A stretch of 64,000 nucleotides of DNA from Trypanosoma brucei (Eukaryota), in the NCBI GenBank assembly GCA_000002445.1, contig CM000207.1, positions 2,688,001-2,752,000 on the forward strand, written 5' to 3'. The notes under the pieces are model-generated. The model worked only from the letters and a program-made list of their open reading frames with translations. It ran no database searches and was not told the DNA's origin. Below are positions 1,661-47,184 of the stretch, piece after piece. The stretch's first letter is position 1, and the number at the start of each line of letters is the position of its first letter. Both the position numbers and the translations under genes were made by a program.

Positions 1661-2043
1661 GTGTGATCAAAGGAACAGAATTGTAAATGAGAAAATAATG
1701 CTTAAAAAAATTCAAGTTTCCTTGCAAATTAAATTTTAATATGATTGCTGCTGATTTTGTGAGATTTCTATTATCAGGAATTTTGCTCAATTTCACAAAA
1801 TTTGCCATTAACGGAGATTTATCTATATTTGGTAAAATATGAAATATTTTAAAAACCATTTAATAAAATGCATAAACTACATAAATTAATAAAAATTTTA
1901 CGTATAACATTTTGTTATGAAAGTGGAATATTTTTTCAAAGTAATGGGCAAATAGGGTATGAAAATGAATCATATTAATAAACTGTTCGAATTATGTTAA
2001 CTAGTAATAGTAAGAATGCCTTCCGCATGTCTGGCACCTCAAC

Positions 2044-5000
2044 GTGGTGCCATGGTCCAGTACCCCGTATCATCGGGGGAAGCCAAGAGCTAGCAGCGTT
2101 CCTTTCATGGGAAACACTGCTGCCTCTTGGCTTTCCCCGATGATACAGCACAGGGATCAGCAGCGTCTTGCTGGGACACCGTTTTTCATTTGTCGGTCCC
2201 TGGGCACGTCAAAGCGTGCCATCAGCAGTATCATCCGCACTAAGATGCTGCTGTCCGGTGATGTGGAAGAGAATCCCGGCCCGTCGTTGCGCGGGATGCA
2301 GTGGAACTGCGCCGGGCTATCTCAAGGAAAGAGATTAGCACTCCACAAAACCCTTGTTGATGAGCGGATCGCCTTTTGTCTGTTGAGCGAGACAAGGATG
2401 ACGCTTGGAGAGGAGGCTTGCTTTACCGTTTCTGGCTACCAACATCACGGAATAGCTCGTAACTGCAAAGGAGGTGGTGTATCAATACTAGTGAGGGAGG
2501 ACTTACTAGTCGAGACCGGTATGGCCGTTGTTGGTCGCATTGAACAAGTGCATGCAACAATTCACCTTGCACGTGGAACGGCGCTGACTGTCACGTCGGC
2601 ATACGTCCCACCAAAACACACCTTCACGGCAACTGACCTAGATACGCTTCTGACAACTGACGGTGCCCAGCTCATCGGTGCAGACGCTAACGCACACGCG
2701 TTGGCATGGGATCGCACGAGCCCACCAAATACCAAGGGTGAAACCCTCACACAGTGGTGCATTGACAACCAGTTTCTGGTCTGCAACACTGGTGAGTGCA
2801 CCAGGTACGCGCGCCACCACGGGGAATCTACCCTTGATGTGACACTGTCAAGGAATTGCACAGTGTACATGTGGACATCGCTGTATTCTCCAGATAGCGA
2901 TCACCATAACATATTTTTCGACGTTATCGTTGGAGACGACACAGATGCACTGAGTTGCACGCGGCCTCGAATGCCCATGTACGTATGGCTAAAAGCTGAC
3001 TGGAGGAATTTCCGTCTCAAGGTTGACGAGCTCTGCAGGAAAATTGGTAGAGAGAAGAACGTCAATACCCTGGAACAGAAATTGAGCTCCGCCATCCGCA
3101 TTGCGACGAAGATGTTCGTCCCCCGTGGCTGCAGAGCAACGCCACCACATTGGACACCAACGCTCACTAAACTCGATGAAGAGATCGCTGGATGCGGACC
3201 CTCCCACCGAAGGGAAATGTTGGTAGCCACGCGTAAGCAGATCCTGGACCGTACCACAAAGAAGAGATGGAGAACGCTATGCTCCAGACTTGCGGTGTCA
3301 GACCGCTGCAGTTGGCACATTGTCAAGAAGGTATATGCGCCACGACCACTAACCACACTGGCGGTACTTGTTGATAACGCGGCCATCACGGACTACCGTC
3401 AAGCTGAGAGGTTCAGTAAACTGTACTCGTCCCGCGCAAGAAGGCAACCCGACTCACACCCACCGGCACCCATAAAGACGATAGCGAGTGAGTTCAGTCC
3501 CATCACGATGGCTGAACTACGGAGATCGATCAAACTGCTTCCGACCGGATCCGCAGCCGGACCTGATTGCTTATACAACGAGGCACTGCAACATCTCGGC
3601 AGAAAAGCGCTGAATGTTGTTCTGAGGCTATTCAATGAGAGCCTACGAGCGGGAGTCGTGCTGCCTGCATGGAAGATTGGTGTTATCATCCCCATCCTGA
3701 AGGCCGGAAAAAAGGCGGAGGACCTCGATTCTTACAGGCCTGTGACGCTCACGAGCTGTCTCTGCAAAGTCATGGAGCGCATAATTGCCGCGAGGCTTAG
3801 AGACACTGTTGAGTCCCAGCTGACGCCGCAGCAATCAGGCTTTCGCCCCGGATGCTCAACGCTCGAACAACTCCTGCACGTCCGCGCTGCCCTCTGCCGT
3901 CCCACGCACCAACATCGTACGGGTGCTGTATTCGTTGACTACGAGAAGGCATTCGATACAGTAGACCACGACAAAATTGCGAGGGAAATGCACAGAATGA
4001 AGGTATCACCCTACATTGTGAAGTGGTGCGTATCATTTCTGAGTAACCGAACTGGCAGAGTGAGATTCAAGGAGAAGCTTTCCAGAAGCAGAACATTTGA
4101 GCGAGGAGTGCCAAAAGGAACTGTCCTTGGCCCAATCATGTTCATTATTGTCATGAACTCGTTGAGCCAACGCCTTGCAGAAGTGCCGTTACTGCAGCAC
4201 GGATTCTTTGCAGACGACCTAACGCTACTTGCGAGGCACACAGAGAGGGATGTCATCAACCACACACTGCAATGCGGCCTCAACGTGGTGTTACAGTGGT
4301 CAAAAGAGTACTTTATGTCTGTCAACGTAGCGAAAACAAAGTGCACACTCTTCGGGTGTACAGAGCGCCATCCCCTTACATTGCAACTGGACGGCGAAAG
4401 AATAGGAGCTGACAGGACACCGAAGCTTCTCGGAGTAACATTCCAGCGTCTGCATGGGATGGCAACACATGCAGCCGAAACGAGACGCAAGATGGACTTC
4501 AGAATACTGCAGATAGCAGCCATCTCAGCTTCTACATGGGGGCCAAGACGACAAGTGCTGAGAGCTTTTTATCTAGCACTCGTACAGGCACACACCATGT
4601 ATGGCATTGAGGTATGGTACTGGGACGCTTCGGAACGAAGTCGCGACCTCCTTGCAGCAGCACAACACAAAGCCAGTCGCATCATAGCTGGCATACCGCA
4701 TGGGACGCGCAAAGAGGACTCTCTGCTGGAAGCAAACCTCCTGCCACTCAAGACGACCACTCTTGTGCGCAGCATGAAATTCATGCTGATGTGTGAGTCA
4801 CGAGGCGGATGTTTGCGGCGCAGTGCTGAAGAAGTATACCACAGCAAACACCCAGTCAGAGCCCTACATTCCCGCATCATGCTGTCGTACCCTCTTCTCC
4901 ACATTGAGCCACGCGAGCACCCACTAGAGACATCGACGCTCCGCCACAGCTGCCGACCGCTATTTCACACGCAGATAAAGCCTGTGTGCGCTGATGACCC

Positions 5001-5382
5001 TGACGATGTCAAAAGGGAGGCTTCCGAAAAGTGGATTGAACGGCATTTTGCACGGAGGGGGAAGGAGCCACCGCGACGAGAGCACTACGAATTGTGGACT
5101 GATGGATCCGTGTCCCTCTGTGAGAAGTCCGGAGCAGTTGCTCTGCTCTATAAAAACAATACGCTTATTTGTGCACCCAAAACCGGAGCAGGGGAAATCT
5201 CATGCAGTTACAGAGCGGAATGCGTAGCATTAGAGATAGAACTGCAACGGCTGCTGAAATGGCTTCCGGCATACAGAAGCACACCGAGCAGGTTGTCCAT
5301 CTTCTCTGACTCGCTGTCAATGTTAACAGCACTGCAGACAGGCCCCCTAGCCGTAACGGACCCAATTCTAAGACGACTATGA
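2044..5382 (+). CDS. ingi polyprotein, N-terminal 1112 aa: 2A-like peptide, AP-endonuclease, reverse transcriptase, start of RNase H; ends at in-frame TGA 5383-5385
   Basis: ORF track 1112 aa; motifs DVEENPGP, RT segment ...PVTLTSCLCKVMERII... and GFFADDLTLLA (Y/FxDD box), RNase H-like ELWTDGS...AECVALE. Confidence 0.9.
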   Translation: MVPWSSTPYHRGKPRASSVPFMGNTAASWLSPMIQHRDQQRLAGTPFFICRSLGTSKRAISSIIRTKMLLSGDVEENPGPSLRGMQWNCAGLSQGKRLALHKTLVDERIAFCLLSETRMTLGEEACFTVSGYQHHGIARNCKGGGVSILVREDLLVETGMAVVGRIEQVHATIHLARGTALTVTSAYVPPKHTFTATDLDTLLTTDGAQLIGADANAHALAWDRTSPPNTKGETLTQWCIDNQFLVCNTGECTRYARHHGESTLDVTLSRNCTVYMWTSLYSPDSDHHNIFFDVIVGDDTDALSCTRPRMPMYVWLKADWRNFRLKVDELCRKIGREKNVNTLEQKLSSAIRIATKMFVPRGCRATPPHWTPTLTKLDEEIAGCGPSHRREMLVATRKQILDRTTKKRWRTLCSRLAVSDRCSWHIVKKVYAPRPLTTLAVLVDNAAITDYRQAERFSKLYSSRARRQPDSHPPAPIKTIASEFSPITMAELRRSIKLLPTGSAAGPDCLYNEALQHLGRKALNVVLRLFNESLRAGVVLPAWKIGVIIPILKAGKKAEDLDSYRPVTLTSCLCKVMERIIAARLRDTVESQLTPQQSGFRPGCSTLEQLLHVRAALCRPTHQHRTGAVFVDYEKAFDTVDHDKIAREMHRMKVSPYIVKWCVSFLSNRTGRVRFKEKLSRSRTFERGVPKGTVLGPIMFIIVMNSLSQRLAEVPLLQHGFFADDLTLLARHTERDVINHTLQCGLNVVLQWSKEYFMSVNVAKTKCTLFGCTERHPLTLQLDGERIGADRTPKLLGVTFQRLHGMATHAAETRRKMDFRILQIAAISASTWGPRRQVLRAFYLALVQAHTMYGIEVWYWDASERSRDLLAAAQHKASRIIAGIPHGTRKEDSLLEANLLPLKTTTLVRSMKFMLMCESRGGCLRRSAEEVYHSKHPVRALHSRIMLSYPLLHIEPREHPLETSTLRHSCRPLFHTQIKPVCADDPDDVKREASEKWIERHFARRGKEPPRREHYELWTDGSVSLCEKSGAVALLYKNNTLICAPKTGAGEISCSYRAECVALEIELQRLLKWLPAYRSTPSRLSIFSDSLSMLTALQTGPLAVTDPILRRL
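2260..2283 (+). other. 2A-like ribosome-skipping peptide motif (DVEENPGP) at codons 73-80 of ingi ORF
   Basis: gat gtg gaa gag aat ccc ggc ccg read directly from sequence; matches the D(V/I)ExNPGP 2A consensus reported for L1Tc/ingi-clade elements. Confidence 0.85.
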
Positions 5383-5412
5383 AGGCTTCTGCTTCAAGTT
5401 CAGAGAAGGAAG

Positions 5413-6741
5413 GTGCGTATCAGACTGCAATTTGTGTTTGGCCATTGTGGCGTGAAACGGAATGAGTTTTGTAATGAAATGGCCAAAAAGGCCGCTGATT
5501 TACCACAGTTGCGAGACACATGGATCCCCGACATCATTGCTTATGCGAAGCGAGTGCTTAGGTCGGAAGAAGTCCATGAGAACACTCATAGGTTTGGTAT
5601 CACGGGCAACCACTTTCCAACAAAACATAAGGAAGAACTGACGAGGGAAGAAGAAACGGCACTGGCACGCTTTCGGGTTGGGTCTTCAAGACACTATGGA
5701 TGGATGTTGCGAAAGATCAACCCGAGTGTGCCTCCACAGTGCCGATGGTATAACCCGCAACATGCAGCGATAGGACCAACAATACAAACAGCCCCAACTG
5801 TTGCGACACGCACTCTTCAGAGAACCTCCGAACCGACCAAATGTACGGAATGTGATGCCACATACCAATGCCGCTCGAGTACTGTAACGCACATGGTAAA
5901 CAAACATGGCTTTGTGCGAGCTGATGCCCACCGGAGGATCAAATACGGCGATGCAACACCCGCAGTGGATATCCCCCCGGAGCCCCCTCCAGTGGTGGCG
6001 ATCGTTCCTTTACTATCGAGCACACGAGTCCTGATGAGACCGCAGGTGCTTCATTGTACCATCTGTGCCTCCAAATTCGCAGTACCAGGCCGACTACTAC
6101 ACCACCTTAGAACAATACATGGCATAGGTAGCGGTAGTTGCCGCGTGAAAAGGGGGCGAGAGAACGAGGACTCAGTGCAAGGAGATGGTAGAGCCCCAGC
6201 AGCGCCAGTCTCTCAGGATACACGGAAGCTGCCGTTTCAATGTGACCTGTGCGAGACGAGCTTCGGTACACGCTCTTCCCGGTCACTACACAAGAAATTC
6301 AAACATAAGAGCATAGTGACGGAGGACGGTACCGTGGTGGTGGTGCAATTCCCTCGTAAGCGTGCCCGTGAAGGAAACGTTGACGTCCCGGGGAAAGGCG
6401 AGGTGCAGTGTGGTGTGTGCCAAAAAGTGCTCAGTTGCAGGGATTCTCTCATCCGACACTGTAAGGCTTTCCACAAAGGTGAGGGAGTCGAGGTTAAATG
6501 CAGCAAAAGCACAAAATTGTGTGCCACTGATTCCCCGCATACAAATGCATCCATGTTGGTGTGCCTGACATGCGGAAGGCAGTGTGCTAGCAAAACTGGC
6601 CTCACCCTACATCAAAAGAAGATGCACGGTATGAAGGTAGAGCGCGCTGTTACCAGCCAACGCGGCGACTGCGAAGAAACGGCGCTGCACCTGATGAGCT
6701 GTCCCGGTTTGAAGGAATTACGTGTCAGGTTAGCTGTATAA
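5413..6741 (+). CDS. ingi polyprotein C-terminal portion (same frame as 2044..5382, separated by one TGA): end of RNase H plus four C2H2 zinc fingers
   Basis: Same reading frame (positions 1 mod 3) as upstream ORF; fingers CTICASKF..HHLRTIH, CDLCETSF..HKKFKH, CGVCQKVL..RHCKAFH, CLTCGRQC..HQKKMH. Confidence 0.85.
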   Translation: MRIRLQFVFGHCGVKRNEFCNEMAKKAADLPQLRDTWIPDIIAYAKRVLRSEEVHENTHRFGITGNHFPTKHKEELTREEETALARFRVGSSRHYGWMLRKINPSVPPQCRWYNPQHAAIGPTIQTAPTVATRTLQRTSEPTKCTECDATYQCRSSTVTHMVNKHGFVRADAHRRIKYGDATPAVDIPPEPPPVVAIVPLLSSTRVLMRPQVLHCTICASKFAVPGRLLHHLRTIHGIGSGSCRVKRGRENEDSVQGDGRAPAAPVSQDTRKLPFQCDLCETSFGTRSSRSLHKKFKHKSIVTEDGTVVVVQFPRKRAREGNVDVPGKGEVQCGVCQKVLSCRDSLIRHCKAFHKGEGVEVKCSKSTKLCATDSPHTNASMLVCLTCGRQCASKTGLTLHQKKMHGMKVERAVTSQRGDCEETALHLMSCPGLKELRVRLAV

Positions 6742-12246: not shown

Positions 12247-12262
12247 GTGTTAAAATATATCA
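12247..12262 (-). promoter_or_regulatory. VSG 3'UTR conserved 16-mer (TGATATATTTTAACAC) belonging to orphan VSG 3' fragment
   Basis: Exact reverse complement GTGTTAAAATATATCA at 12247-12262. Confidence 0.8.
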
Positions 12263-12357
12263 AATTTAAGCTGAATTTTATGAAATTTATGAATTATTCA
12301 TTTTGAGAGAAATTTCTAAAAGTGAGCAAAAATCCTAAATATTTTTTTCCTCAAATC

Positions 12358-12700
12358 AAAAATGCAAGCAAAAGAGGGTCCTTTATCACAAAAGAATTTT
12401 CCATGTGGTGTTTGTGTGGTTTTTCTATCATTTTTACTCGTTCCCGCTTATTTTTCTACTTCCTTCTTGATTTCCTCACTCAATCTGAGCATTTTACCCT
12501 AGACGGATTTTGGGTTAAAAACGTACCCCTGGGAGTTGAGCGTCTTTGTTCGTTGGGTGTCAGCGGCAGATTGTGTAGTCGCTCCTTAATTTCTGATCTT
12601 TATAATCGCCATTTCACAAATAGTTTCCCCTTTCTTTATTTACTTTTTGAAAACAAATCGTTTGGCTCACCGAAACTGCAGCGCGCCAGCGTAAAAAAAT
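12358..12700 (-). pseudogene. Orphan VSG 3' fragment: C-terminal domain remnant plus GPI-anchor signal (ENSFVIKDPLLLAFLI*) and own 16-mer
   Basis: Minus-strand translation of 12358-12420 gives ...HMENSFVIKDPLLLAFLI stop; pattern CCTGTGGTGTTTGTG shared with C-termini at 21545, 41320, 45790. Confidence 0.65.
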
Positions 12701-12744
12701 GTCGCGTGCAGTGTCATAGGCCGCGGTCCATATTTTTTTAAAAT

Positions 12745-13145
12745 TGATACCGCGCGCAGCACGAAATGCAGAGCTGAAATCCACAGAAGCAAAAAAAGTT
12801 AAAACTACGGGCTAAGGTGCAGGTGAAAAAATTAAGTGGAGTTGGACGTGGGGGGCAAATAAGGGTTAGGGTTGCATTAAAAAAGAGCGGCTGCATCATT
12901 AAAAAAAAAAAGAGAGCTAAAGTCGCTACAGTTCACTGCTATTAAAAAAACTTATTAGTAGCAGGAGAAATAACCCTAACCCTAACCCTAACCCTAACTA
13001 ACCTAACTACCCCCCCCATTCCTACCTACCTACAAAAATAAAAAAACAGGAAAGAAGAAAAAAAATTTTAGCTGTCAGAAAATATTTTTTTACAGAATCA
13101 CAAATTTTTACAAACTTTACAACAAACAAAAAAACTCGGCTGGTT
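12745..13145 (-). repeat. Telomere-hexamer cassette copy A: GGGTTAGGGTT (12863-12873) ... ~90-bp conserved spacer ... (CCCTAA)4 (12974-12997), plus conserved flanks
   Basis: Read directly; on the minus strand (TTAGGG)4 runs in telomere orientation immediately 3' of VSG 13227..14796; homologous copies at 16540-17345, 25015-25585, 45240-45700. Confidence 0.8.
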
Positions 13146-13149
13146 TTAG

Positions 13150-13165
13150 GTGTTAAAATATATCA
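13150..13165 (-). promoter_or_regulatory. VSG 3'UTR 16-mer of VSG 13227..14796
   Basis: GTGTTAAAATATATCA exact on plus strand, i.e. 16-mer on the minus strand. Confidence 0.85.
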
Positions 13166-13226
13166 GAAAGTTTTCAAGTAGCAAGAAATTTTTTGCAAGG
13201 AAAATTTTAAAAAGAGGGGGGGAAAC

Positions 13227-15800: not shown

Positions 15801-16079
15801 AAGTAAACAAAGTAAACAAAATAAATAAAATAAGGAAAATAGTGAACTTTTTACAAACAATTTCCGCACTCATTTGCTTCGTCATATCCTTTTAATATAC
15901 GTTTTACTAACATTCTTAATTTTTATTGTTTCAAATTTTTAACAATTTTCACATTTTAATTAAAATGTGTCATAATTATTAAAATTTAGAAAAAGTTCAC
16001 AAAATTTTAAAAAGTCTCTCAGGCTAGGAAATTTCATAGTCTTGTTAAAAGTAAACAAAAACCTAAAAAAACTTAAAGA

Positions 16080-16420
16080 AGCAATGCCGCAAAGAAGCAA
16101 CCATCAGAGCAATTTGCTTATTTACAGTAAAATTAAAAACACGGCATTTAACTTTGTCCTTTTTATCCTCGTTATATTTCCCATTTCTCTATCCACAATG
16201 CTTTTTGCAATCCCTGTTTAATGCCTTACATTCCTGTTGTGTGGTGAGTTTGCTGCAGTGAGGTTTACTATCTTTTCCTCTTGCTTCTTGGTTTGCTTTT
16301 TCTAGTTTTTCTTTCACATCCTTGTTCAATATGCACTTTTTGCCTTCTTCGCTATCCTTGTTAAAAACGCATCCCTGGCATCTGCTCGCTTTTTGGCATA
16401 TTCTGCCAGCGACAGATCGG
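16080..16420 (-). pseudogene. Orphan VSG 3' fragment (Cys-rich C-terminal domain plus GPI-signal tail)
   Basis: Minus-strand translation shows CxxC-rich C-domain and hydrophobic tail analogous to 9454-9560 and 17414-17480. Confidence 0.55.
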
Positions 16421-16539
16421 TCAGTCCCTCCTTAGCAGCTCCTCATAATAATTTCCTACTTCCAAATAACTCTCTTTTTAGATTATTTATCCGTTAAAAG
16501 CAAACAGGATCGGGAAAAGCCATAGGCGGCACGCTGCCG

Positions 16540-17345
16540 TTTTTTAAGAGAAAAAGAAAAGAAATTTGGTTCCGTTTCTATCACAAGAAGCAGAGCTGAA
16601 ACTCTCAAAAGTGTGAAAAGTGTAATTATGACAAATCGCTAGCGAGTTTGGTTCTTCAAATTTAAGCAAATATTTCTGCACTGTAAATAAGGGTTAGGGT
16701 TCACGTAAAAAAGAGCTGCTGCATAACTAAAAAAAAGCTAAAGTTGCAACGCTTCACCACCAGTAAAAAACAAAAAAATTAAAAATTATAACCCTAACCC
16801 GCAAGAGGCTAGCTCGATAACCTGCGAGGCTCGTGCCGCTGACCAATCAAAAGATTACAGTGGCCGCCAAAACAAAAATATCGAGGCCCAAAAGGAATGA
16901 AAAAAAAATTAAAATCATTAAAAAGTTTTAAAAATAGTGTTGAAAACGAAAAAGATGATAAACTAAATAAATTAAGTGGCGCCTCACGGCTGAGGTGCGA
17001 ATAAGGGTTAGTGTCATCGTAAAAAAAGCCGTTGCATTAATTAAAAAAAAACAAAAAATTATAATAAAGGGATAATCGGGCAATAAAAAAACAACTGATA
17101 AGAGGAGAAATAACCCTAACCTGAATAACCCTAATCCTAAGCCTAAGCCTATCCATAAACTGAGCCCGGATAACCCTCCCTAGCCTCCATACCTAACTTT
17201 CCTAACCTCCTTTCTTCTTTTCTCCTCTCGTCTTACGCAGATTTATGCACAAAAAAATCAACAATAAAAAGGGGAATTTTTACTCATCAGAAGAAAAAAT
17301 TTACAGAATCACACATGCAGTCAGATTTTTTATAAAAACACACAA
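16540..17345 (-). repeat. Telomere-hexamer cassette copy B (two tandem cores: GGGTTAGGGTT 16691-16701 with AACCCTAACCC 16790-16800; GGGTTAGTG 17005-17013 with AACCCTAACC...CCCTAATCCTAAGCCTAAGCC 17112-17150)
   Basis: Read directly; conserved flanking motifs GCAGAGCTGAAA and TTACAGAATCACA shared with copies A, C, D. Confidence 0.8.
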
Positions 17346-19229: not shown

Positions 19230-20389
19230 CTATTTCAAGTTTGAATGGTAGGCAGGCAGCCTTATTTTTTCTTTTAGTTGGCTTCTCAACGGAATGTATC
19301 CATATGCGTTTACGTGGTGCAAAACAATAAGGTTAGGATTTTCTTCTACAAATTTCTCGAGTGGCCTTTTCACATGCATCACAAAATGACAATCTTTCAT
19401 ATCGACCGTCAAAAAGTCCTCAATTTTAAGTTTATTCTTTATAACTTCTCCAACAATAATATCTTCATTGAGTGCTCTAAAATCCATATATGTTTCCAAA
19501 TTTCTGAATTTAATCGTTAACTTTACTAATTTTTTCAAAGGTTTATAATCAACTATTTCCTTCACCACATCCCTGTATAGTGTGAACGCATAACCAATGG
19601 TATGCCATGTAATTTCATTACTAAATTCTTTATAATAACCAACAGCTCTCCCCATATTCAATTTCTCTTGTGGTAATATTTCAAGGTATTGCAAATACAT
19701 TGGCACCCTCATAAATATATCATCATCTGCTTTCATTATATAGGGATTAGCTGACTTGAATGTATAAACTGCAAATTTGAATCACAAATATGTTTTTCTA
19801 CTCATCGTGAGATCTTATTCCCAGCCCCAATTCCTCAACCCTCCAACTTTTTTATTTGCTGTTGGATTCACATCACAAACAGGTAAAATTATAATATCCT
19901 GGTATAACTCTGCATCTCCTTCAACAATTTCTCTGAGCTCGCAATTATTATTTGTATGAGGGGAATGAGCATATACTATAAGCAACTTCCCACTAAAATT
20001 ATTTGACTTACGTGCCAATTCATGGTAACTCTAACAAGTTTCCCTCTGTAGATTCCTTCTTCTGAATCTTTCATCATTATCTATGGAAGATATTCCAGAT
20101 ACAACAAAATAATCTTCAGTTTTCCAAATACTCATAACATCCTGCGAAACAAATCTCATATACTCATCTTCAACAATCTCCAGTGAAATGGATTCACCCT
20201 CACTAAACAAACTGTATAGTACACATATAAAATAATTACCATAGAAATAAAAGATAAACAACTCACTTTTGCATAGATACCTCCCATATGGTTTATAACT
20301 TCCTGTTTTCGTACTAATGAAAACTTTAAATATCTTATAATATCATTGTATAAAACAAAAGAGAGGAAGTTAGTTGCAGCATGATTCAA
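19230..20389 (-). pseudogene. GT31/GT67-type UDP-Gal/UDP-GlcNAc-dependent glycosyltransferase pseudogene (4 frame-broken pieces)
   Basis: TM segment, then SGISSIDNDERFRRRNLQRETC (ExxxRxTW-type motif), then GDAELYQDIIILPVCD, then MKADDDIFMRV (DDD catalytic motif of beta-1,3-glycosyltransferases), spread over ORFs 20156..20389, 20031..20261, 19815..20018, 19230..19736. Confidence 0.75.
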
Positions 20390-21169: not shown

Positions 21170-21250
21170 TGTATATACACACTCACTACACTTTCCTATC
21201 AATATCAATATAGTTGTAGCTATTATTGTAACCCTAACCGTATTATATCC
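21170..21250 (-). repeat. 70-bp repeat followed by TAACCCTAACC junction motif
   Basis: TATATACACACTCACTACACTTTCCTATCAATATCAATA...GTAACCCTAACCG. Confidence 0.6.
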
Positions 21251-24586: not shown

Positions 24587-24960
24587 TTAAAATTCCACAA
24601 ACATCATTAACGCAACAGCCATCAGAATAAATTTCTTATTGACGATAAAACTGGAAGAGTGGCATTTGAAACTCTTATCACCTCCACTGGCATCCTCTCT
24701 TATCCACCCACAAAATTTGTTCTTTCCAGATTGTTTTTGAACCGTCAGCCGCCTTACATTCCGTCTTTGTCTTAAAATCGGCACATGTCTTGCCATTCTT
24801 ATTTTTCCCATCATTCTCTCCTGCTTGGTTTGCTTGTTCCGCTGCCTTCCTCACTCAAGGTGCACTTTTTGCCATCGCCTACTTTGAGGTTAAAAACGCG
24901 ACCCCGGCAGCTGAGTGATTTCAGCCGCTGACGTGGTGGCGCCTGATTGAGCAACTACTG
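24587..24960 (-). pseudogene. Orphan VSG 3' fragment (C-terminal domain plus GPI signal SSSFIVNKKFILMAVALMMFVEF)
   Basis: ORF 24587..24814 minus. Confidence 0.65.
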
Positions 24961-25014
24961 CTTAGCTGCTGATCGTGCTAATCGCTATCCACAAAATATT
25001 ATTAGATCTCTTAA

Positions 25015-25585
25015 TTTCCTCTTTGAAAGCAAATTGTTTCGCACAGTGAAATCGCCACACGCCAGTATAAAATAGTAATAGTAATAATTTTGAAGCCGCG
25101 CGCACCGCAAAAAGTAAAGTTGAAATTCACAAGAGCATAATGAGCAAAAGCTTAACAAATCGATGCGAAGGTGGAGGGGGAAAATATGAAGGTAAATATG
25201 TCTTCTGGGTAAATAAGGGTCATATCACGCGTCAAAAAAAAAGAGCCAGTTCACACCTAAAGGAAAAAGCTCATGTCGTGATGCTTCACTGCTAGTAAAA
25301 AAAACCAAAATAAAAATAAAAAGTCATAACCCTAGCCCTCTCTCTCTCTCCTTCCTATCTATTCTCCTGCCTTCTTTGTGTTTACGGCGCTTGGGTTGGT
25401 GGACAAAAAATCAACAAAAAAAATTAAATTCTAAAATGCCAAAACCTTTTTGAAAAGAACCTGAAACCTAAAAATAAAAAAAGGAGAAAAGTTTTAGCCA
25501 TCATCAAAAAGATTACACGCTTAGGCAGAACGAAAAATTAATTATTTTCAGGGTAACTTACGTGTTAAAATATATCAAAATTTCA
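25015..25585 (-). repeat. Telomere-hexamer cassette copy C (degenerate G-strand AAATAAGGGTCATATC 25211-25226; AACCCTAGCCCT 25328-25339) ending in 16-mer 25563-25578
   Basis: Colinear homology with copy A: ...GCAAATTGTTTCGCAC...GCCGCGCGCACCGCAAAAAG...AAATAAGGGT...GCTTCACTGCTAGTAAAAAAA...ATAACCCTA... Confidence 0.7.
25563..25578 (-). promoter_or_regulatory. VSG 3'UTR 16-mer of VSG 25625..27181
   Basis: GTGTTAAAATATATCA exact. Confidence 0.85.
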
Positions 25586-27435: not shown

Positions 27436-28340
27436 TTACGACTTACCCCCATCTATTGTGTAACATTGAATTTCTCCCAACTCGTCAGCGGTAAGTTTTC
27501 TTCCCTTAAACTCCACATACCAACTGAGATTTTTCAAAATTAATTTTTCCCTCTCCTCACACGCAAATGCTTGCTCTGTTAATTGAATGAATAAATGGAT
27601 CCTCTCTAAAATCACCATTATTTGAAATAGCAAAACATATCTCTTCATAATTCAGTTCAATCATTCTCTTACTCAAAAAACCCTGTAAAACAGCTTTTTT
27701 CTGCAAAGCAGTTCAAATCGGTAAGGGCTTGTAAATGCTTTGATCACACAACCATTCACTCGTTATTTACTGCAAGCGATTTCTCATACGCAAATTCAAA
27801 AATTTTAAATGCCTACACTTGTGCTATCACACCACCACCCTTAAGATAGGGTTTGCCACTAGGAGATGATTTTAGCAAATGAGGTAAATATTTATCCTCT
27901 TCGTTTCTGTAGCCCACATTAAAAAACAAATAACAACACAGCACATGATATTTGTGAACATGCTTTTCACTAAACTTCTTTTTATTAGTTGCACCATTTT
28001 GTATAAAATATCCCACAGAAGTTTCATGCTTTTGTTGATCAGCAACAATAACATCATACCCACCCACAGTTTTTAAAAAATCCTCATTATTTTCATCATG
28101 CCTTTATCAATATTCCATAACCCATCTAGGTCTTTTTACATGACTATACAAACCTCCCATAGCAATTGTAATAATTTCAACATGGCTTAGTTTGTCACTC
28201 AATATGAGCCTACACCATCCTTGAGTTGCATGAGTTTGAACGACAAACACAAACACTATAGGCTTTTTAGTATAATTCACTGACACATTGTTTACGTTAT
28301 TCATTTCGTTATCTTGAAGAGCTTTGAGCATAAAAACACT
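27436..28340 (-). pseudogene. Fragmented copy 1 of an unassigned conserved array-associated protein family (motifs VVQTHATQGWCRLIL, IAMGGLYSHVKRPRWVMEF, HLDGSDVIV, TSECYAPQL)
   Basis: ORFs 28107..28331, 27813..28067, 27436..27648 minus; paralogous to 36390..37340 and 51600..52340. Confidence 0.6.
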
Positions 28341-30479: not shown

Positions 30480-30680
30480 TTCCGTTATCACAACCATACT
30501 TATAATATTATCATATACAAAATAGCAATACTCTCCTATTATTATCATTGTTATTATCTTTATCACTGTTATTATTGCTGCTCTTATTATAATATTAGAA
30601 TATACATACTTACACAGTTTTCTACATTTATACTTACTATTAGAGCCCTCACTAATATAACCCTATCTAATACGCATAAA
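30480..30680 (-). repeat. 70-bp repeats (2-3 tandem units)
   Basis: CTCTTATTATAATATTAGAATATACATACTTACACAG with TTATTATCATTGTTATTATC triplet runs. Confidence 0.65.
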
Positions 30681-36389: not shown

Positions 36390-37340
36390 TTAGAAGGCCA
36401 ATTTCCCTCGTTTAGCGCAATATAGAGTTTTCTCCAAATATCTAGTGTTAAATTGTTCTCCTTTCAACTCTTTATACCAAGTAAGATTTTTCACAATTAA
36501 CTTTGCTTTCTCCTCCCATGCAATTGGTTGACCCGGAAAATGAATGAATGGGGCTTCGTCAATCACCCCACTATTTGGAATGGAAAATAAATGTTCCTCA
36601 TAATCCAATCCAATCATTCCTCTCTTCAAGACAAATCTCTGTCCAACAGCTTCTTCCTGAATTTCAATCCATATTAACAGAGGCTTTGAAATGCTTTGAT
36701 CCGAACACCACTCCTTACTTCCCTTTAGTAACTCTTCGAATGCATATTCAAATTTCCCAAATGCCCATACTCTTGCTACCAAACCACCACCACTAAGATA
36801 GGGGTTTTCTACTAGGAGGCGATTTCAGCAAATGCGGTAACTTCTTATCCTATTCTTTTCTGTAACCGACATTAAAAAACCAATAGCAATCTCTCTACAT
36901 GCTCTTTGTGATCTGAATTCCTAACCAAATCCAACTGAGGCGCATAACACTCTGATGTTGTCATGAATATAATAGGGGAAATATGCTTCTCTTTTACTAT
37001 ATCTTCTCCACTAAACTTCTCTTCATTTTCAGCAGTATTCTGTATAAAATATTCCACAGAATTTTCATATTTTTCTCCGTAAGAAACAATAACATCAGAT
37101 CCGTCTAAATGAATTAAAATATCCTCATCACTTACATTCTGTTTTTCTAAAAATTCCATAACCCATCTAGGCCTTTTTACATGACTATACAAACCTCCCA
37201 TCGCAATTGTAATAATTTAAACATTGTTTAGTTTGGCACTCAATATGAGCCTACACCATCCTTGAGTTCCATGAGTCGGAACGACAACCACAAAGACTCT
37301 CGGATACTTAGTAATATTATGTGTTATATTTTCCCTGTAT
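36390..37340 (-). pseudogene. Fragmented copy 2 (most complete) of unassigned array-associated family
   Basis: ORFs 36872..37201 and 36390..36782 minus plus upstream piece ...VFVVVVPTHGTQGWCRLILSAKLNNV decoded manually; stops between pieces. Confidence 0.6.
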
Positions 37341-41020: not shown

Positions 41021-41265
41021 TAACCCTAACCCAACAAACATCCATAAAATAAACAAATTAGAATAGCACTCATTTTCCATCCCCTTTCACCCTCCGGCTT
41101 TGCATCCACAGGTCAGTATCATACGAAATTTTCATATTTTAAAGGTTTTCAATATCTTCATATTTTTCATTAATTTGTACATTTTAATAAAAAAGTTAAA
41201 ATTTAGTAAATTTCCTCCAAATAGAAAATTTTACAAACTTTAGTAAAACGTTTTTGAAAACTTAA

Positions 41266-42756: not shown

Positions 42757-44436
42757 TATTTTTTCTATTTCTGGCTTATTGTTCGTTGTGTGTTTGGCTA
42801 TGTAATAGCTGCGACACGATGGTTCTTAGATTGGCACGGTGACGTTGTTTCTTCTGTTTTTCTGGCTTATTATCGTTCAGTTGGGAAAAGGTTATTAGAC
42901 TCTGTTTGCAGCTTGTGGAGTGCAGCCCACGCCGCCGCTACAGCTGCTGATAAGCTCGATATATTCGGCTGTCAACGCTTTTCAGAAGCAGCCTGCTGTG
43001 CCACCGAAACCGCATTCTGGTAGCTGCTTTCTTATGCGATCACTTAAATTTACCGTCTTGAATTAAAAAATTTACTAACATCAATTATTTCATGTCCAGC
43101 CTCCATCCAAAATTTTTCCATATTTACCAACACAATATTGGATATCGATTCAAAATTATATCTAAAGCACTCTCCTTGTTTCTTCTCTGCACATTGTGAT
43201 TGCATATACCTCCTTATTTTTTATAGTTGTGATTAAATGTATTAAAACTTCTTCTCGGTCAGGTTTCTGACTATTCCAACCATATTTGACACTCAGAATC
43301 TCACCGTTAAAAAATTTCTTGTACTAGTGCTGCAAACATCTGCGTTATTTTCCGCGTCAATTTTGTTTAAAGGTAGTTTGTAGATCTGTCAAATTTGCTA
43401 TCGATCGCCTCTTTGCCTCGCGTTCTCGAAGTATTGCAGCTGACAGCCTGTCGACTAAAGTTGGTACTAACATTGCTACGCACGGCATCAGTCGCCCTGA
43501 CGCAGATCCTTGGCTTTCGCTGCTTCTTCAGACTTTGTGGTTGCAAATCTTTTAACACAAAGAGTTTTTAACAAGTACAAACTAACACTAGCTCTTAGTT
43601 GTATTCGTCTCCCCTACTTACTTTCTTCTTTCTCACTTAACGATACAGAAAGCTGCAGGGTCCAGAAATACATATGGGAAGTCGATGCTATTTACTGTTT
43701 CCTTACTGGGTGATTCGAACCACTTGCACTTTTCCATGTTTTTTAGCTTCTAACATGCCAAATCTGCAGCTTAGACTTGCTTTTTACATTTTGGATGCTA
43801 ATACAGAAAATAAAGAAATGTTTGCGCCCATACAATACCTTGCCGATTTGGCTACGTCTCAAAACAACGAAGACTCAGTGTTTCCACACTATCTTCTCAT
43901 TCAAAAACGCTTTGATCACCGATATACCATGCCGGTTTTGACTCATTCTTTTATCTGCTTCTATTTTTACTAATTTAGCGCTACTTTTGTTTCTTTCTGT
44001 AAGTTCAACTGTGGCCATTGTACGCTTGCCTCTGAATACACTTTCTAGCTGTCGTTAATACAGGTACCACAAGCACTTTAAGATGAGTTATACGCTCTTT
44101 ATCTCGTCAATTACCTCCAATGTTGCTATAAGGTACAAAGGTATTATATTCCTTATTTTCCTTTCTTCCTTTCCGCTTTCTGTCACTGTTTCTACAGATT
44201 CCGTAGTTACTCTCCTTAGCTTATACACTGGAATTCGACTCTCCCTGATTATTCTTTCTACAATCTAGTTATGTATAATAATATCCATAATCATGTTTGA
44301 GCATGAACTGCCTATATTTCATCTCCTCATTCTCCTCTTCACTCTTCTACTTACTCCCATTGCATCCTTGGAATTTTTAAAAATGTTTCTATTTATCGAA
44401 TCCACTTCGTACTCTCATTATTGCTCTCATTATAAT

Positions 44437-44660
44437 ATTCGTATATACACACTCACAACACTCTTCTATCATTATCATCATCATTATTATTATTATTATT
44501 ACTGCTCTTATTATAATATTCGTATAGACACACACTCACAAGACTCTCCTATCATTATCATCATTATTATTATTATTATTATTACTGCTCTTATTATAAT
44601 ATTCGTATAGACACACACTCACAAGACTCTCCTATCATTATCATCATTATAGCCCTAACT
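44437..44660 (-). repeat. 70-bp repeats, three tandem units (~80-bp period)
   Basis: Three near-identical units CTCTTATTATAATATTCGTATA(G/T)ACACACACTCACAA(G/C)ACTCT(C/T)CTATCATTATCATCATTATTATTATTATTATTACTG read directly. Confidence 0.9.
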
Positions 44661-44799
44661 AATTTGCATTAATAAAAAAATACAAGAAAAGTTAGAATAT
44701 CACTCATTTTCACATTTTCATCAGAAAGTGTAAAGGTATATAAAGTTCAGATAAATTTATAAATTTTATATAATCAAGAAAAGATTTTAAAAATTGTTG

Positions 44800-45060
44800 A
44801 ATGCTACAAAAATAGTAAAAGCAGCAGCCGTCAGAGCCGATTTGTTATTTACAAGTAAACTAGAATCACTTCAAGCTTTATTATTCCATTTGAAGTTATT
44901 GCCCTTTTGTACAGGCATCCGATGTAATGTGGCTAGTGCAGTTGCAGTTGCAGTTGTTTTATCCCCGTCTTTCTTTTCTCCTGTCTCGCCTCCTGTATTT
45001 TTTCTCTCCTTCTTGTTTTACCCCTTCTGCAGCTGTTGTTAGCTTTTCCATTTTTTGAAC
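44800..45060 (-). pseudogene. Orphan VSG 3' fragment (C-terminal domain remnant with GPI-like tail)
   Basis: Sequence AAAGCAGCAGCCGTCAGAGCCGATTTGTTATTTACAAG parallels C-tails at 9454-9520 and 16080-16140. Confidence 0.5.
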
Positions 45061-45239
45061 ATAGTAGTAAGCCATTGCCTTACCGAGGTTGTTCTTGTTT
45101 CAATGCTTGCCAGCGCTAAAAAAACGGCGGTGCAGCGCCATAGGCCACACACCAGGGTCTTTAAAAAAAGTTTGAAGCCTGTCCCTACGAAACGTTCAGA
45201 GGCGAAATTAGCGAAAGCTACAAGAGTACAATTGTAACA

Positions 45240-45700
45240 ATGTGGGAATAAAATTAGTATGAGAAAAATTTAAGCGAGGATGCTGCCGTTCAAATAAGGG
45301 TTAGGGTTTCACTAAAAAGAGAGCTGCTGTGCCACAAAAAAAAAGTGAATCAAAAAATGGGTCGATATTGAGATGGAAATTAGAGCTGCAGATGTAAACG
45401 TAAACAAAAATGTCTGCTTCATCAATAAGGGTTAGGGCCACATCAAAAAAAGAACCAAAATCGTGACGTATCATTGGTAGTATAAAAAAACCAAGAAAAA
45501 AAATCATAACCCTAACCCTAACCCTAACTATCCCCCCTCCCCATTTCCCCGGCTGCACAAAAAAAACTCCAAAAAAAAAGGAAAGAGAAAAAAATTTTTA
45601 GTTGTCAGAAAAACAAAAAAAATTTACAGAATCAGAAGTTTTTTTACAACCAACAAACAAAATCTCGGCTGGATTTACGTGTTAAAATATATCAGAAATT
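45240..45700 (-). repeat. Telomere-hexamer cassette copy D (GGGTTAGGGTTT 45298-45309; GGGTTAGGG 45429-45437; (CCCTAA)3 45508-45528) ending in 16-mer 45679-45694
   Basis: Read directly; same flanks as copy A (…AAAATTTTTAGTTGTCAGAAAA…ACAGAATCAGAAG…GTGTTAAAATATATCAGAAA). Confidence 0.8.
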
Positions 45701-45738
45701 TTAACCAAAGTTTTAGCAAGGAAGAAAAAGAGGGGAAA

Positions 45739-47184
45739 TTAAAAAAGCAAAAATGCAAGCAAAAGAGAAACCTTCTTAATCACAAATGAATTGCTCCCTG
45801 TGGTGTTTGTGGTTGTTTTTCCATCTTCTTTTGTTACATCTGCTTTTTGTGCTTTCTCTGTGATTTTGCACTTTTCTTTTGTTTTATTCCATTCGCAACC
45901 CTTAGTGGTGCCGCATTCAGCTTGGCCCTTGCCTTCGCATTTGGCCGCCTCCGCTTTGGTAACTTGACAACCTTCTTTGTCGTCCTGCGCTGCTGCGAGT
46001 TGACATGCTGTTTCGTTCAGAGCGATGCGAACAAGTGTTGCTGCTGCTACTGCTTGTTCTGCTTTATTAGCTGCTAAGTTGGCCTGCTTGAATTTTTTGA
46101 TTGTTTCGTGTATGCTCTTGAGCTTGTTGGCTTTGACAGTTATCTCTTTTTCGGGGTACTTATCCACCACAGTTTTCGCTGGAATTTTGAGGTCTTGCCA
46201 TGTTGACTGATCTGTGCCTAAGAGAAGCAACAGTTTGTCCGCTTGTTCTGCTGACTTAAGTTGGTCGACGATCTCTGCCAGGTGCTTTGAGCATTCTTGG
46301 TATGTTGAATCGTCGGCTGTTGGCGCCGTTTTCGTCTGCCAGTTTGTTTGGGTCGGAGCACTGCCCGTTGATGTCGTGAACAATTCGCCGCCCCAGTTGA
46401 CTGCTTGAACTATGTTCTGGCCGTTAATGTAGCCGCCATCTGTTGAGTCGTGCATGGTGAGTCCTCAGTCTGCTTCGCTGCCGTCGGCAGCTAGTTCGGC
46501 GCCGGCGTCTTTTAGGGCTGCGTATTTGCCGGCCACGTTAGGCTCCTCCGAGCTGCTGGATTTTAGTAGCGGCGGGCTACGTCCGGTAGCATCCGCGATG
46601 CAATCAAGTTCATTTGCCTTTGCTTCGTTTGTCGTCCCCTTGATGCAGTAGTTTGATCCTGCTGTTGCTGCCTGGAAAAAGACACTAACAAATTCGTGGA
46701 TTTTGCCTCCGTAGAAAGCGCAGCGCCTTGCTGTTAGTATGGCTCTTTCCGCTCCGTTTTGTATTTTTTGGGCTGTTTCGACTACTAGCTTACTGGCTGG
46801 CAGTAACAGTGTTGACATTTCCTCGTACACCGCTCCGTCAGTTGGTAGAACTGCTGTAAGCAGAATCTGTTGTAGTTCTTGCAGCTCCATTGCTTCTTGT
46901 CCAAGCTTTTGTAGACGGCCGGCGACGTATGCCGGGACCTTTGTCATTTCAAGTGATAAATGGCAAACTTTTTGCATTGCTGCCACTTTTAAGGGCTTTT
47001 TGTGTGCTGACTCTCCTAGCTGGGCATTGGATATCGCTATTGCTGCTACCACCGCTGCTAGTCTCCACATCCTTTCAGTCGGCTTAAAATCTATGAAGCA
47101 ATATGTTCGCACGTGCGGTTCTTGCCTTTCGGAGTATCGGAAGCTGTGATGAATGTGGTTCAGAGATAGCAGCGCTTGCTTCAA
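45739..47184 (-). pseudogene. VSG (N-domain ORF 46465..47184; C-terminal ORF 45739..46455 with GPI signal SNSFVIKKVSLLLAFLLF; one stop or frameshift near 46455-46465)
   Basis: ORF track. Confidence 0.85.

What the first reader, a model, noticed from the sequence alone, without database searches (positions are those of the whole stretch)
12745..13145. Recurrent inverted telomeric-hexamer cassette downstream of array VSGs (4 copies)
Four times (12745-13145, 16540-17345, 25015-25585, 45240-45700) a conserved 0.4-0.8 kb element follows a VSG 3'UTR 16-mer. Read 5'->3' on the VSG-coding minus strand, a short run of (TTAGGG)2-4 is in the orientation expected for a telomere distal to a telomeric VSG. 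A conserved ~90-bp spacer follows (…TTTTTT…GCAGC.GCTCTTTTTT.C…), then an inverted (CCCTAA)2, plus conserved outer blocks (GCAGAGCTGAAA…, …TTACAGAATCACAAA…). Copies B and D contain two tandem G-strand cores. This looks like a fossilised chromosome-end or telomere-fusion junction carried into an internal array, or alternatively a small TIR-bearing element with GGGTTAGGG termini. I do not recognise it as a standard annotated feature of VSG arrays.
Basis: seen in the sequence. Interest (0 to 1): 0.75.

Follow-up and report, generated by a model that had tools for sequence, protein, structure and literature searches.

The report
Fossil telomere junction in VSG arrays
Four old, diverged copies of a 1.3-1.5 kb stretch that follows silent trypanosome surface-antigen (VSG) genes carry a short telomere tract facing an inverted one, most likely the scar of an ancient joining of chromosome ends that was later copied along with the genes, so it is real but probably a relic and not a working device.

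Summary
The window is a Trypanosoma brucei-type VSG array. At four places, directly 3' of a VSG 16-mer, the VSG strand reads: about 150-220 bp of flank, a G-strand telomere tract ending ...GGGTTAT, a 70-100 bp T-rich spacer, then CCCTAACCCTTATT. All 12 exact TTAGGGTTA and all 6 ACCCTTATT lie on the VSG strand at these sites or at cassette boundaries (expected about 0.4 each).

The element is larger than reported. Each copy continues through a conserved ~275 bp non-coding block (X) into a VSG C-terminal-domain-only gene fragment with its own 3' UTR. Ordinary cassette boundaries in the window also show a decayed TTAGGGTTA stub abutting the next 70-bp repeat. Copy D is present in a syntenic T. 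b. equiperdum locus at 97-98% identity, with the arms no better conserved than their neighbours.

Tests did not support a TIR transposon, a mirror-image fusion, a 70-bp-repeat derivative, a telomerase-RNA retro-copy or a known RNA family.

Best reading, with most steps inferred: an ancient head-to-head junction between a telomeric VSG end and a telomere-capped broken piece of array, later spread by cassette duplication. This is an interstitial telomeric sequence, a known kind of feature, in a setting that the searchable literature does not describe.

The parts
12971..13033 (-). Copy A, G-strand telomere tract on the VSG strand: degenerate (GTAGG)3..TAGTTAGGTTAG, then (TTAGGG)4 TTAT
12874..12970 (-). 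Copy A, T-rich conserved spacer
12858..12873 (-). Copy A, inverted arm AACCCTAACCCTTATT
12563..12857 (-). Copy A, block X: non-coding, GC-rich core flanked by T runs
   Evidence: nhmmer E 3e-58
12262..12530 (-). Copy A, VSG C-terminal fragment and its 3'UTR (own 16-mer at 12247-12262), followed by an ordinary flank and a 70-bp repeat at about 12044
13150..13165 (-). 16-mer of the full-length VSG upstream of copy A
17111..17215 (-). Copy B, unit B2, long degenerate telomere-like tract ending AGGTTAGGGTTAT
17000..17110 (-). Copy B, unit B2, spacer plus decayed inverted arm CACTAACCCTTATT (17000-17013)
16802..16999 (-). Copy B, partial block X' between the two units
   Evidence: read directly from the sequence (shares CCACTTAATTT with block X of copy A)
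16686..16801 (-). Copy B, unit B1: CGGGTTAGGGTTAT, spacer, ACCCTAACCCTTATT
16409..16685 (-). Copy B, block X
   Evidence: E 3.5e-62
16069..16377 (-). Copy B, VSG C-terminal-domain fragment (PF10659, E 3e-11, one in-frame stop)
25212..25338 (-). Copy C unit, both arms decayed: GGGCTAGGGTTAT, spacer, ATATGACCCTTATT
24939..25211 (-). Copy C, block X
   Evidence: E 1e-64
24596..24900 (-). Copy C, VSG C-terminal-domain fragment (PF10659, E 4e-11, on a translation spliced across one frameshift)
45424..45530 (-). Copy D, unit D2: (TTAGGG)3 TTAT, shortened spacer, GCCCTAACCCTTATT
45293..45423 (-). Copy D, unit D1: partial X, then half a spacer, then ACCCTAACCCTTATT; no G-strand arm
45029..45292 (-). 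Copy D, block X
   Evidence: E 1e-52
44799..45005 (-). Copy D, VSG C-terminal-domain fragment (PF10659, E 2e-6)
44649..44660 (-). Telomere-like stub AGTTAGGGCTAT directly abutting three 70-bp repeats (44426-44647)
41021..41033 (-). Ordinary cassette boundary: GGGTTAGGGTTAT directly abutting a 70-bp repeat
   Evidence: the same is seen in L001 at 15749
21229..21240 (-). Ordinary cassette boundary: CGGTTAGGGTTA just upstream of a 70-bp repeat

Best explanation
**What it is.** The four copies are paralogues of one composite segment of about 1.3-1.5 kb in the silent VSG array. They are not four independent insertions. On the VSG strand each copy reads:
- full-length VSG, then its 3'UTR 16-mer;
- about 150-220 bp of flank;
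- a G-strand telomere tract, degenerate proximally and perfect distally, always ending GGGTTAT;
- a T-rich spacer of about 70-100 bp;
- 1.5 C-strand repeats (CCCTAACCCTTATT);
- about 275 bp of non-coding block X;
- a VSG gene fragment holding only the C-terminal domain, with its own 3'UTR;
- an ordinary flank that ends at the next 70-bp repeat; a short telomere-like stub precedes that repeat in copy D, and none is recognisable after copy A.

**Most likely history (inferred).** A telomeric VSG end (VSG, flank, TTAGGG repeats) was joined head to head to another DNA end that had itself been capped with a few telomere repeats. That second end was a broken, acentric piece of array beginning with X and the C-terminal fragment. 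Because the piece was acentric, the product keeps every VSG in the same orientation and has one centromere. The scar then spread and diverged to about 70% identity through the duplications and conversions that build VSG arrays. Slippage or unequal exchange between the short repeats produced the partial tandem units in B and D and changes in repeat number.

**Shown:** the anatomy, the orientation, the homology among copies, the restriction to VSG 3' ends, and the inheritance in a second genome.

**Inferred:** the joining event itself, and the view that the element has no present function. It may incidentally bind TRF or RAP1 or carry base J.
For: - **Context.** VSG_B domains, an ingi reverse transcriptase and 16-mers identify a T. 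brucei-type array.
- **Strand-specific excess of hexamers.** All exact hits lie on the VSG strand, far above chance.
- **Position.** Every G-strand tract lies 150-225 bp 3' of a 16-mer. This fits the 200-1590 nt between VSG and telomere in expression sites (PMC2567434).
- **Degenerate proximal repeats.** TAGG-rich repeats proximal to the perfect repeats are found only in A and B2, at 8 TAGG per 100 nt against a background of 0.22. GGGTTA-like sequences are reported between expression-site VSGs and their telomeres (PMC11229358).
- **Single origin.** The junction GGGTTAT|spacer is identical in all copies, and homology continues through both arms into X and the C-terminal fragment.
- **Other boundaries.** At ordinary cassette boundaries the aligned block just before the 70-bp repeat has the consensus AGTTAGGGTTAT. 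It is alignable in 12 of 14 junctions, with two-repeat stubs at 41021 and 21229.
- **Second genome.** Copy D and the stub at 41021 are present in an independent T. b. equiperdum assembly. Identity there is 97-98%, the same as the neighbouring non-coding DNA. One hexamer has been lost and one arm carries a substitution, which looks like neutral drift.
Against: - The two tracts do not abut. A conserved non-telomeric spacer of unknown origin separates them, which a plain fusion does not predict.
- Block X matches nothing else available here, so 'broken piece of array' is an assumption.
- In the four-copy alignment, the two arms are the best-conserved 13-nt windows after the functional 16-mer (0.88 against a mean of 0.60). 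This hints at constraint or homogenisation. The column-shuffle test is weak, however (P about 0.06 for three such windows).
- The two kinds of 3' flank, with and without the cassette, are not detectably homologous.
- No real T. brucei telomere or expression-site 3' flank could be fetched for direct comparison.
- Only one window and two small outside loci were sampled.
Confidence: 0.55

Rival explanations
1. Short telomeric repeats were inserted by telomerase during repair of an internal double-strand break. Both broken ends received a few repeats and were rejoined with filler DNA. Under this reading the site was never a real chromosome end, and the product was later duplicated.
For: Head-to-head orientation is what two healed ends rejoined would give. 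The arms are very short, 1.5-4 repeats. Stubs sit at the edge of 70-bp repeats, which from general knowledge of the field are break-prone. This mechanism is documented in vertebrates (PMC2246262 and PMC8537989, listed).
Against: The 60-100 bp of degenerate TAGG-rich repeats proximal to the perfect repeats in A and B2 look like a natural subtelomere-to-telomere transition, not a fresh addition. The distance from the VSG matches expression-site ends. The variant in which telomerase RNA is retro-copied does not fit published TbTR facts: the template is CCCUAACCCUA, nt 334 is A, and a ~10-bp boundary helix lies at about nt 299-327 (PMC8643685). The arm reads CCCTAACCCTT, the base five positions upstream of the arm (the position that would be nt 334) is G or T, and by direct inspection the upstream 40 nt cannot form such a helix.
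Confidence: 0.2
2. The hexamer arms, and the stubs at every cassette boundary, are maintained cis-elements. Candidate roles are binding sites for TRF or RAP1, targets for base J that help silence or position the arrays, seeds for new telomere formation after array breakage, or landmarks for recombination of C-terminal-fragment donors.
For: After the 16-mer, the arms are the best-conserved 13-mers across copies that are about 60% identical overall. The left arm is perfect in 4 of 6 units and the G-strand arm in 4 of the 5 units that have one. RAP1 ChIP shows weak subtelomeric peaks that the authors call 'residual ES sequences' (PMC10686619).
Against: The conservation excess is not significant on a column shuffle (P about 0.06, and one of the three windows is the 16-mer). 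Copies C and B2 have decayed arms. Between the window and T. b. equiperdum the arms changed (a hexamer lost, a C-to-A substitution) while the neighbours are 97-98% identical. Most boundary stubs are heavily decayed and two junctions lack one. No binding or modification data could be examined.
Confidence: 0.12
3. A small non-autonomous transposon (MITE-like) with GGGTTAGGG/CCCTAACCC terminal inverted repeats that targets VSG 3' flanks.
For: Inverted arms of 9-11 nt about 100 bp apart. In intact copies they can pair as single strands (z -1.9 to -2.65).
Against: - There are no target-site duplications (direct reading).
- The ATAA next to each arm is direct, not mirrored.
- Homology between copies continues outside both arms for hundreds of bases.
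- No copy is found in any other context in the window, L001 or L002.
- Unit D1 lacks one arm.
- The decayed copies do not fold.
Confidence: 0.04
4. Chance matches or an assembly artefact, such as chimeric reads joining telomeric sequence.
For: None beyond the general tendency of telomeric reads to misassemble.
Against: The occurrences exceed shuffled expectation 13- to 55-fold, and no shuffle reached the observed counts. There are four diverged copies with shared non-telomeric flanks. The same structure is present in an independent assembly of another subspecies.
Confidence: 0.02

Closest known systems
Head-to-head 'fusion' interstitial telomeric sequences, for example the human 2q13 ancestral fusion site (from my own knowledge, not tested here)
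   Same: Two telomere tracts in inverted, G-strand-to-C-strand orientation at an internal site, degenerate with age and inherited as a scar.
   Different: Here the tracts are tiny (1.5-4 repeats) and separated by a conserved 70-100 bp non-telomeric spacer. The flanks are not mirror-image subtelomeres. The scar has been multiplied to at least four paralogous copies within a gene array.
Short interstitial telomeric sequences inserted by telomerase at double-strand-break repair, including TERC-ITS (PMC2246262, PMC8537989; listed)
   Same: A few telomeric hexamers at an internal site next to non-telomeric filler.
   Different: Those are single-orientation insertions, defined by comparison with an empty orthologous site. 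Here there are two inverted tracts, a degenerate proximal gradient and a fixed position 3' of a VSG. The limited check against published TbTR features did not fit.
The VSG-to-telomere junction of T. brucei bloodstream expression sites (PMC2567434; PMC11229358)
   Same: The order is VSG, 16-mer, then a few hundred bases of flank containing GGGTTA-like repeats, then TTAGGG repeats on the VSG sense strand. The distance is compatible with the reported 200-1590 nt.
   Different: The tract stops after 2-4 repeats and is internal. Sequence homology to real expression-site flanks could not be tested with the collections available.
'Residual ES sequences from recombination' noted at weak RAP1 peaks in subtelomeric arrays (PMC10686619)
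   Same: The idea that arrays contain leftovers of telomeric expression-site sequence.
   Different: That paper gives no anatomy. The inverted cassette, block X and the attached C-terminal fragment are not described there.
VSG gene fragments encoding C-terminal domains in the silent archive (Berriman 2005 and Marcello & Barry 2007, recalled from memory; the latter is not held in the library)
   Same: Each copy of the cassette ends in such a fragment holding only the C-terminal domain (PF10659).
   Different: I could not check whether those surveys noted what lies between a full VSG and the following fragment.

Membership tests
Interstitial telomeric sequence (ITS) | Canonical telomere repeat units of the species at a non-terminal chromosomal position | tested here: met
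   (TTAGGG)2-4 and CCCTAACCC lie 12-45 kb inside a 64-kb window, flanked on both sides by VSG cassettes.
Fusion-type (head-to-head) ITS | Two tracts in inverted orientation meeting at the fusion point | tested here: inconclusive
   The orientation is inverted, but the tracts are separated by a conserved 67-105 bp non-telomeric spacer and do not abut.
Fusion-type (head-to-head) ITS | Subtelomeric sequence of two chromosome ends on the two sides, facing each other | tested here: not met
   One side is a VSG 3' flank, as at a telomeric VSG. The other side is block X plus a VSG C-terminal fragment in the same orientation. No inverted copy of either flank was found.
Telomerase-inserted short ITS or TERC-ITS | An orthologous empty site lacking the repeats | not testable with these tools
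   The only orthologue obtained (L001, T. b. equiperdum) already carries the element.
Telomerase-inserted short ITS or TERC-ITS | Flank derived from telomerase RNA next to the template | tested here: not met
The arm reads CCCTAACCCTT, the base five positions upstream of the arm is G or T, and no such helix is possible in the spacer.
TIR transposon / MITE | Terminal inverted repeats that delimit the mobile unit | tested here: not met
   Inverted 9-11-mers exist, but homology among copies runs through and beyond both of them.
TIR transposon / MITE | Target-site duplications and copies in unrelated contexts | tested here: not met
   No duplications flank the arms. All copies are in the same context, and none was found elsewhere in the roughly 100 kb examined.
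Telomeric VSG 3' end (expression-site type) | VSG and 16-mer followed within 0.2-1.6 kb by G-strand repeats on the sense strand, with GGGTTA-like degenerate repeats in between | tested here: met
   Distances are 150-225 bp from the 16-mer. Degenerate TAGG-rich stretches occur in A and B2, compared.
Telomeric VSG 3' end (expression-site type) | Sequence homology of the flank to real expression-site or minichromosomal VSG 3' flanks | not testable with these tools
   No T. brucei telomeric locus could be fetched. Exact look-ups of window proteins failed.
70-bp repeat | Similarity to the 70-bp repeat consensus | tested here: not met
   Local alignment of every spacer and every X block against three 70-bp repeats gave z below 2. 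The one exception is a TAA run in copy C.
Known structured RNA (Rfam 15) | A covariance-model match | tested here: not met
   No hit at gathering score in the window. Only chance-level hits appeared at E up to 10 in 12500-13170.

The most novel reading that the evidence does not exclude
Every VSG cassette in the silent archive ends in a miniature telomere seed, and these seeds are kept for use. In the four composite copies the seed faces an inverted seed that heads a C-terminal-only donor fragment. After a break in the array, telomerase could heal the chromosome at the nearest seed and turn an archived VSG into a telomeric, activatable one. In the intact array, TRF, RAP1 or base J at the seeds could tether and silence it.
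Probability: 0.1. Interest if true: 0.8.

Novelty: new variant of a known kind. Interest (0 to 1): 0.45.

Why it matters
How the very large silent VSG archive was built, and how genes move between telomeres and internal arrays, is still inferred mostly from gene trees. A dated physical scar is direct evidence that array cassettes descend from telomeric copies and that array pieces have been rejoined through capped ends. The scar here is a telomere tract at the 3' limit of cassettes, in four cases facing an inverted tract attached to a C-terminal gene fragment.

This makes the question testable genome-wide, by counting, dating and placing such scars. It also flags internal TTAGGG sites that ChIP, TALE or TERRA studies usually assume to be absent. 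One such study states that its 15-mer telomere target has no match outside the repeat element it targets (the terminal telomeric arrays), yet the 15-mer occurs three times in this window.

If the scar is only a neutral relic, as I think most likely, its value is historical and technical, not mechanistic.

Tried and rejected
1. **Telomerase-RNA retro-copy of the spacer.** This was attractive because the C-strand arm is the best-conserved part, but it does not fit the published TbTR template, nt 334 or the boundary helix. The full TbTR sequence was not obtainable, and no supplement is held.
2. **Spacer or X as decayed 70-bp repeats.** No significant similarity.
3. **A large palindrome or mirror fusion.** Profile searches on both strands found no inverted copy of X or of the unit.
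4. **Known RNA families.** None found.
5. **A conserved single-strand fold.** Only the trivial pairing of the arms, and this is lost in the decayed copies.
6. **X as VSG coding sequence.** blastx homology starts only at the C-terminal domain, ~300-380 nt after the arm.
7. **X as the ingi 5' signature.** Only a CCCTGG word is shared, and there was no profile hit to the two ingi copies in the window.
8. **Purifying selection on the arms.** Suggestive ranking, but the shuffle gives P about 0.06 and the orthologue comparison shows changes in the arms.
9. **Homology between the two kinds of 3' flank.** Only a 9-mer (TTTATGGAT) is shared with copy B2, and this could be chance.
10. **Wider sampling.** Three protein searches gave only two usable loci (L001 and L002). 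No window ORF is in the protein collection. The DNA collections on offer hold no trypanosome genomes.
11. **Literature.** Ten searches found no description of this cassette. Marcello & Barry 2007 and Weiden 1991 are not held, so prior description cannot be excluded. The minichromosome subtelomere elements of Weiden 1991 (74-bp GC-rich repeats separated by ~155 bp of bent AT-rich DNA, recalled from memory) remain an untested candidate source for the spacer and X.

Full report
**Context.** The window is a silent VSG array of Trypanosoma brucei type. ORFs carry the VSG_B domain, and an ingi-like endonuclease/reverse-transcriptase ORF lies at 2044-5382. The canonical 3'UTR 16-mer TGATATATTTTAACAC occurs seven times on the minus strand. 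The best protein matches are T. brucei VSGs, up to 94% identity. VSGs run on the minus strand from about 9 to 51 kb and on the plus strand from 52 to 59 kb.

At 12.7-13.2, 16.5-17.4, 25.0-25.6 and 45.2-45.7 kb the sequence is as described.
- CCCTAACCCTAA with up to 1 mismatch gives 10 hits against 0.18 expected.
- Exact TTAGGGTTA gives 12 hits, all on the VSG sense strand, against 0.37 expected.
- Exact ACCCTTATT gives 6 hits, all on the sense strand and all in the six units, against 0.46 expected.
- Pairwise BLASTN shows 67-83% identity between copies over pieces of 50-216 bp.
- An alignment of the six units plus two orthologous units gives this consensus on the VSG strand: (TTAGGG)n TTAT, a T-rich stretch, TTTTTTTACTAGCAGTGAAGCGTCACGACTTTAGCTTTTTTTT..ATGCAGC.GCTCTTTTTTACG.GAA, then CCCTAACCCTTATTT.
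- The arms are intact in A, B1, D1 and D2 (D1 has only the C-strand arm) and decayed in B2 and C.

**The element is bigger than reported.** Beyond the inverted arm, all four copies share a non-coding block X of about 275 bp. X has T runs and a GC-rich core (GGCCTATGGCGCTGCAC...). A profile of X finds exactly the four loci in the window, plus the copy D counterpart in L001 (E 1e-51 to 1e-64), and nothing else in the window, L001 or L002 on either strand. The same is true of the unit profile.

X runs into a VSG gene fragment that holds only the C-terminal domain. blastx homology to VSG C-termini starts ~300-380 nt after the arm. Conceptual translations of the fragments in B, C and D hit Pfam PF10659 above its threshold; the translation for C was spliced across one frameshift. 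Each fragment has its own 3'UTR. The fragment after copy A has a perfect 16-mer at 12247. Each is followed by an ordinary flank and by 70-bp repeats.

B and D contain partial tandem duplications of the unit. The full VSGs upstream include both a B-type (copy C) and an A-type (copy D, P0002 with PF00913). The segment therefore goes with the 3' flank and not with a VSG class.

**The telomere-like tract looks like a real end.**
- It starts 150-225 bp after the 16-mer. This is compatible with the 200-1590 nt between VSG and telomere repeats in sequenced expression sites (PMC2567434).
- In A and B2 the perfect repeats are preceded by 60-100 bp of degenerate TAGG-rich repeats. There are 8 TAGG per 100 nt against a window mean of 0.22, and these are the only two places in the window with 5 or more.
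- GGGTTA-like sequences between the expression-site VSG and the telomere have been noted by others (PMC11229358).
- All copies share the same distal junction, GGGTTAT followed by the spacer. This argues for one founding event. Repeat number then drifted to 4, 3 and 2.

**Something similar sits at ordinary cassette boundaries.** Where a VSG 3' flank meets the next cassette's 70-bp repeat I found:
- GGGTTAGGGTTAT|AATATTGATAATGATAGG at 41021 (also in L001 at 15749);
- CGGTTAGGGTTAC at 21229;
- AGTTAGGGCTAT at 44649;
- GATAGGGTTAT at about 30657;
- GCTTAGAGTTAT at about 54535.

In an alignment of 14 such junctions, 12 have an alignable block at that position, and its consensus is AGTTAGGGTTAT. Two lack the block. 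The weaker examples could be chance in AT-rich DNA, or a diverged edge of the 70-bp repeat. The two-repeat examples are not explained that way. The two kinds of 3' flank are not detectably homologous to each other.

**Comparison with a second genome.** L001 (T. b. equiperdum CM010680.1) is syntenic with window 59.2-38.2 kb at 88-95% identity and lacks one whole cassette (window about 54.35-57.06 kb). Copy D is present there. The spacer, X, the C-terminal fragment and the flank are 97-98% identical. The arms are not better conserved than these: the G-strand tract has 2 hexamers against 3, and the D2 arm reads CCCTAACCATTAT. This rules out an assembly artefact and gives no sign of special constraint.

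**Conservation among paralogues.** In a four-copy alignment the three most conserved 13-nt windows are the 16-mer (0.96), AGGGTTAGGGTTA (0.88) and CTAACCCTTATTT (0.88), against a mean of 0.60. Shuffling columns gives three such windows in 5.6% of trials. I treat this as a hint of constraint or homogenisation, not as evidence.

**Alternatives tested.**
- Transposon with inverted termini: there are no target-site duplications, the ATAA next to each arm is direct and not mirrored, homology crosses both arms, and there is no copy in another context.
- Mirror-image fusion or palindrome: no inverted copy of either flank.
- 70-bp-repeat derivative: no similarity.
- Telomerase-RNA retro-copy, as in vertebrate TERC-ITS: inconsistent with the published TbTR template and neighbouring features, although the RNA sequence itself was not available.
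- Known RNA family: none.
- Conserved fold: only the pairing of intact arms.

**Most likely mechanism.** A telomeric VSG end was joined head to head with another end that carried a few telomere repeats. The far side is a same-orientation array piece beginning with X and a C-terminal-only VSG fragment. The simplest partner is therefore an acentric broken piece of array whose end had been healed by telomerase. Joining it to a chromosome end would extend the array without creating a dicentric chromosome.

The scar was then multiplied by cassette duplication and conversion, diverged to about 70% identity, and suffered local slippage. The anatomy, the orientation, the single origin and the inheritance are shown. 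The joining event, the nature of the partner and the absence of function are inferred.

The main rival is that the site never was a chromosome end and that telomerase added repeats to both sides of an internal break. The proximal degenerate repeats argue against this. A functional role (TRF, RAP1 or base J binding, or telomere seeding) is not excluded.

**What is known.** Interstitial telomeric sequences, including head-to-head fusion scars and telomerase-mediated insertions, are well known in other eukaryotes (PMC2246262 and PMC8537989, listed). For T. brucei I found only indirect remarks:
- 'residual ES sequences from recombination' at weak subtelomeric RAP1 peaks;
- a statement that the 15-mer AGGGTTAGGGTTAGG has no exact match outside the repeat element it targets, whereas it occurs three times in this window.

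The key archive papers are not held, so prior description cannot be excluded.

**Verdict.** This is a real, statistically solid feature, best classed as a new variant of a known kind. It is of moderate interest as a historical marker of how the VSG archive was built, and it carries a small chance of function.

Noticed in passing
window 41021-41033, 21229-21240, 44649-44660, about 30657-30667, about 54535-54546; L001 15749-15761: Ordinary VSG cassette boundaries carry a short, variably decayed TTAGGGTTA-like stub between the conserved block TTTATTTTATGGAT and the first 70-bp repeat of the next cassette. The consensus over 14 junctions is AGTTAGGGTTAT, and the block is absent in 2.
   Followed up: partly
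window 12975-12995 and 45511-45525 (minus strand): The 15-mer AGGGTTAGGGTTAGG occurs internally three times. A recent TALE study chose it as a telomere target and states that it has no exact match outside the repeat element it targets (the terminal telomeric arrays) (PMC12975129).
   Followed up: yes
window about 54349-57059 compared with L001 2365-2453: One complete VSG cassette present in the window is absent from the syntenic T. b. equiperdum locus. This is cassette-level gain or loss with breakpoints in the flanks.
   Followed up: no
window 45760-46300 compared with 44600-45759 (against L001): Identity to the T. b. equiperdum counterpart drops from 97-98% in the 3'UTR, the element and the fragment to 87.6% in the VSG coding part. 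This suggests a conversion or mosaic boundary near the start of the C-terminal domain. This VSG also has an in-frame stop between ORFs 45739-46455 and 46465-47184.
   Followed up: no
window 2027-5658 and 60372-64000: Two ingi-type retrotransposon copies, 96.5% identical and in the same orientation. The first is inserted into the 3' flank of a plus-strand VSG remnant (degenerate 16-mer at 1840).
   Followed up: partly
window 19375-20346 and 58205-59174: An inverted duplication of about 1 kb (89.6% identity) links the minus-strand and plus-strand parts of the array. A further repeat family of 0.5-0.8 kb lies at 27502-28269, 36458-36974 and 51648-52422.
   Followed up: no
window about 51.5-52.5 kb: A divergent strand switch between the minus-strand VSG cassettes (9-51 kb) and the plus-strand cassettes (52-59 kb). 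A 70-bp repeat lies on the minus strand at 51484-51516.
   Followed up: no
window 12700-12745, 16515-16535, 25040-25100, 45120-45160: Block X has a GC-rich core (GGCCTATGGCGCTGCACCGCCG TTTTTTT AGCGCTGGC in copy D) within otherwise AT-rich DNA. Its origin is unknown. It might relate to the GC-rich/AT-rich subtelomeric elements described for minichromosomes, which I could not check.
   Followed up: partly
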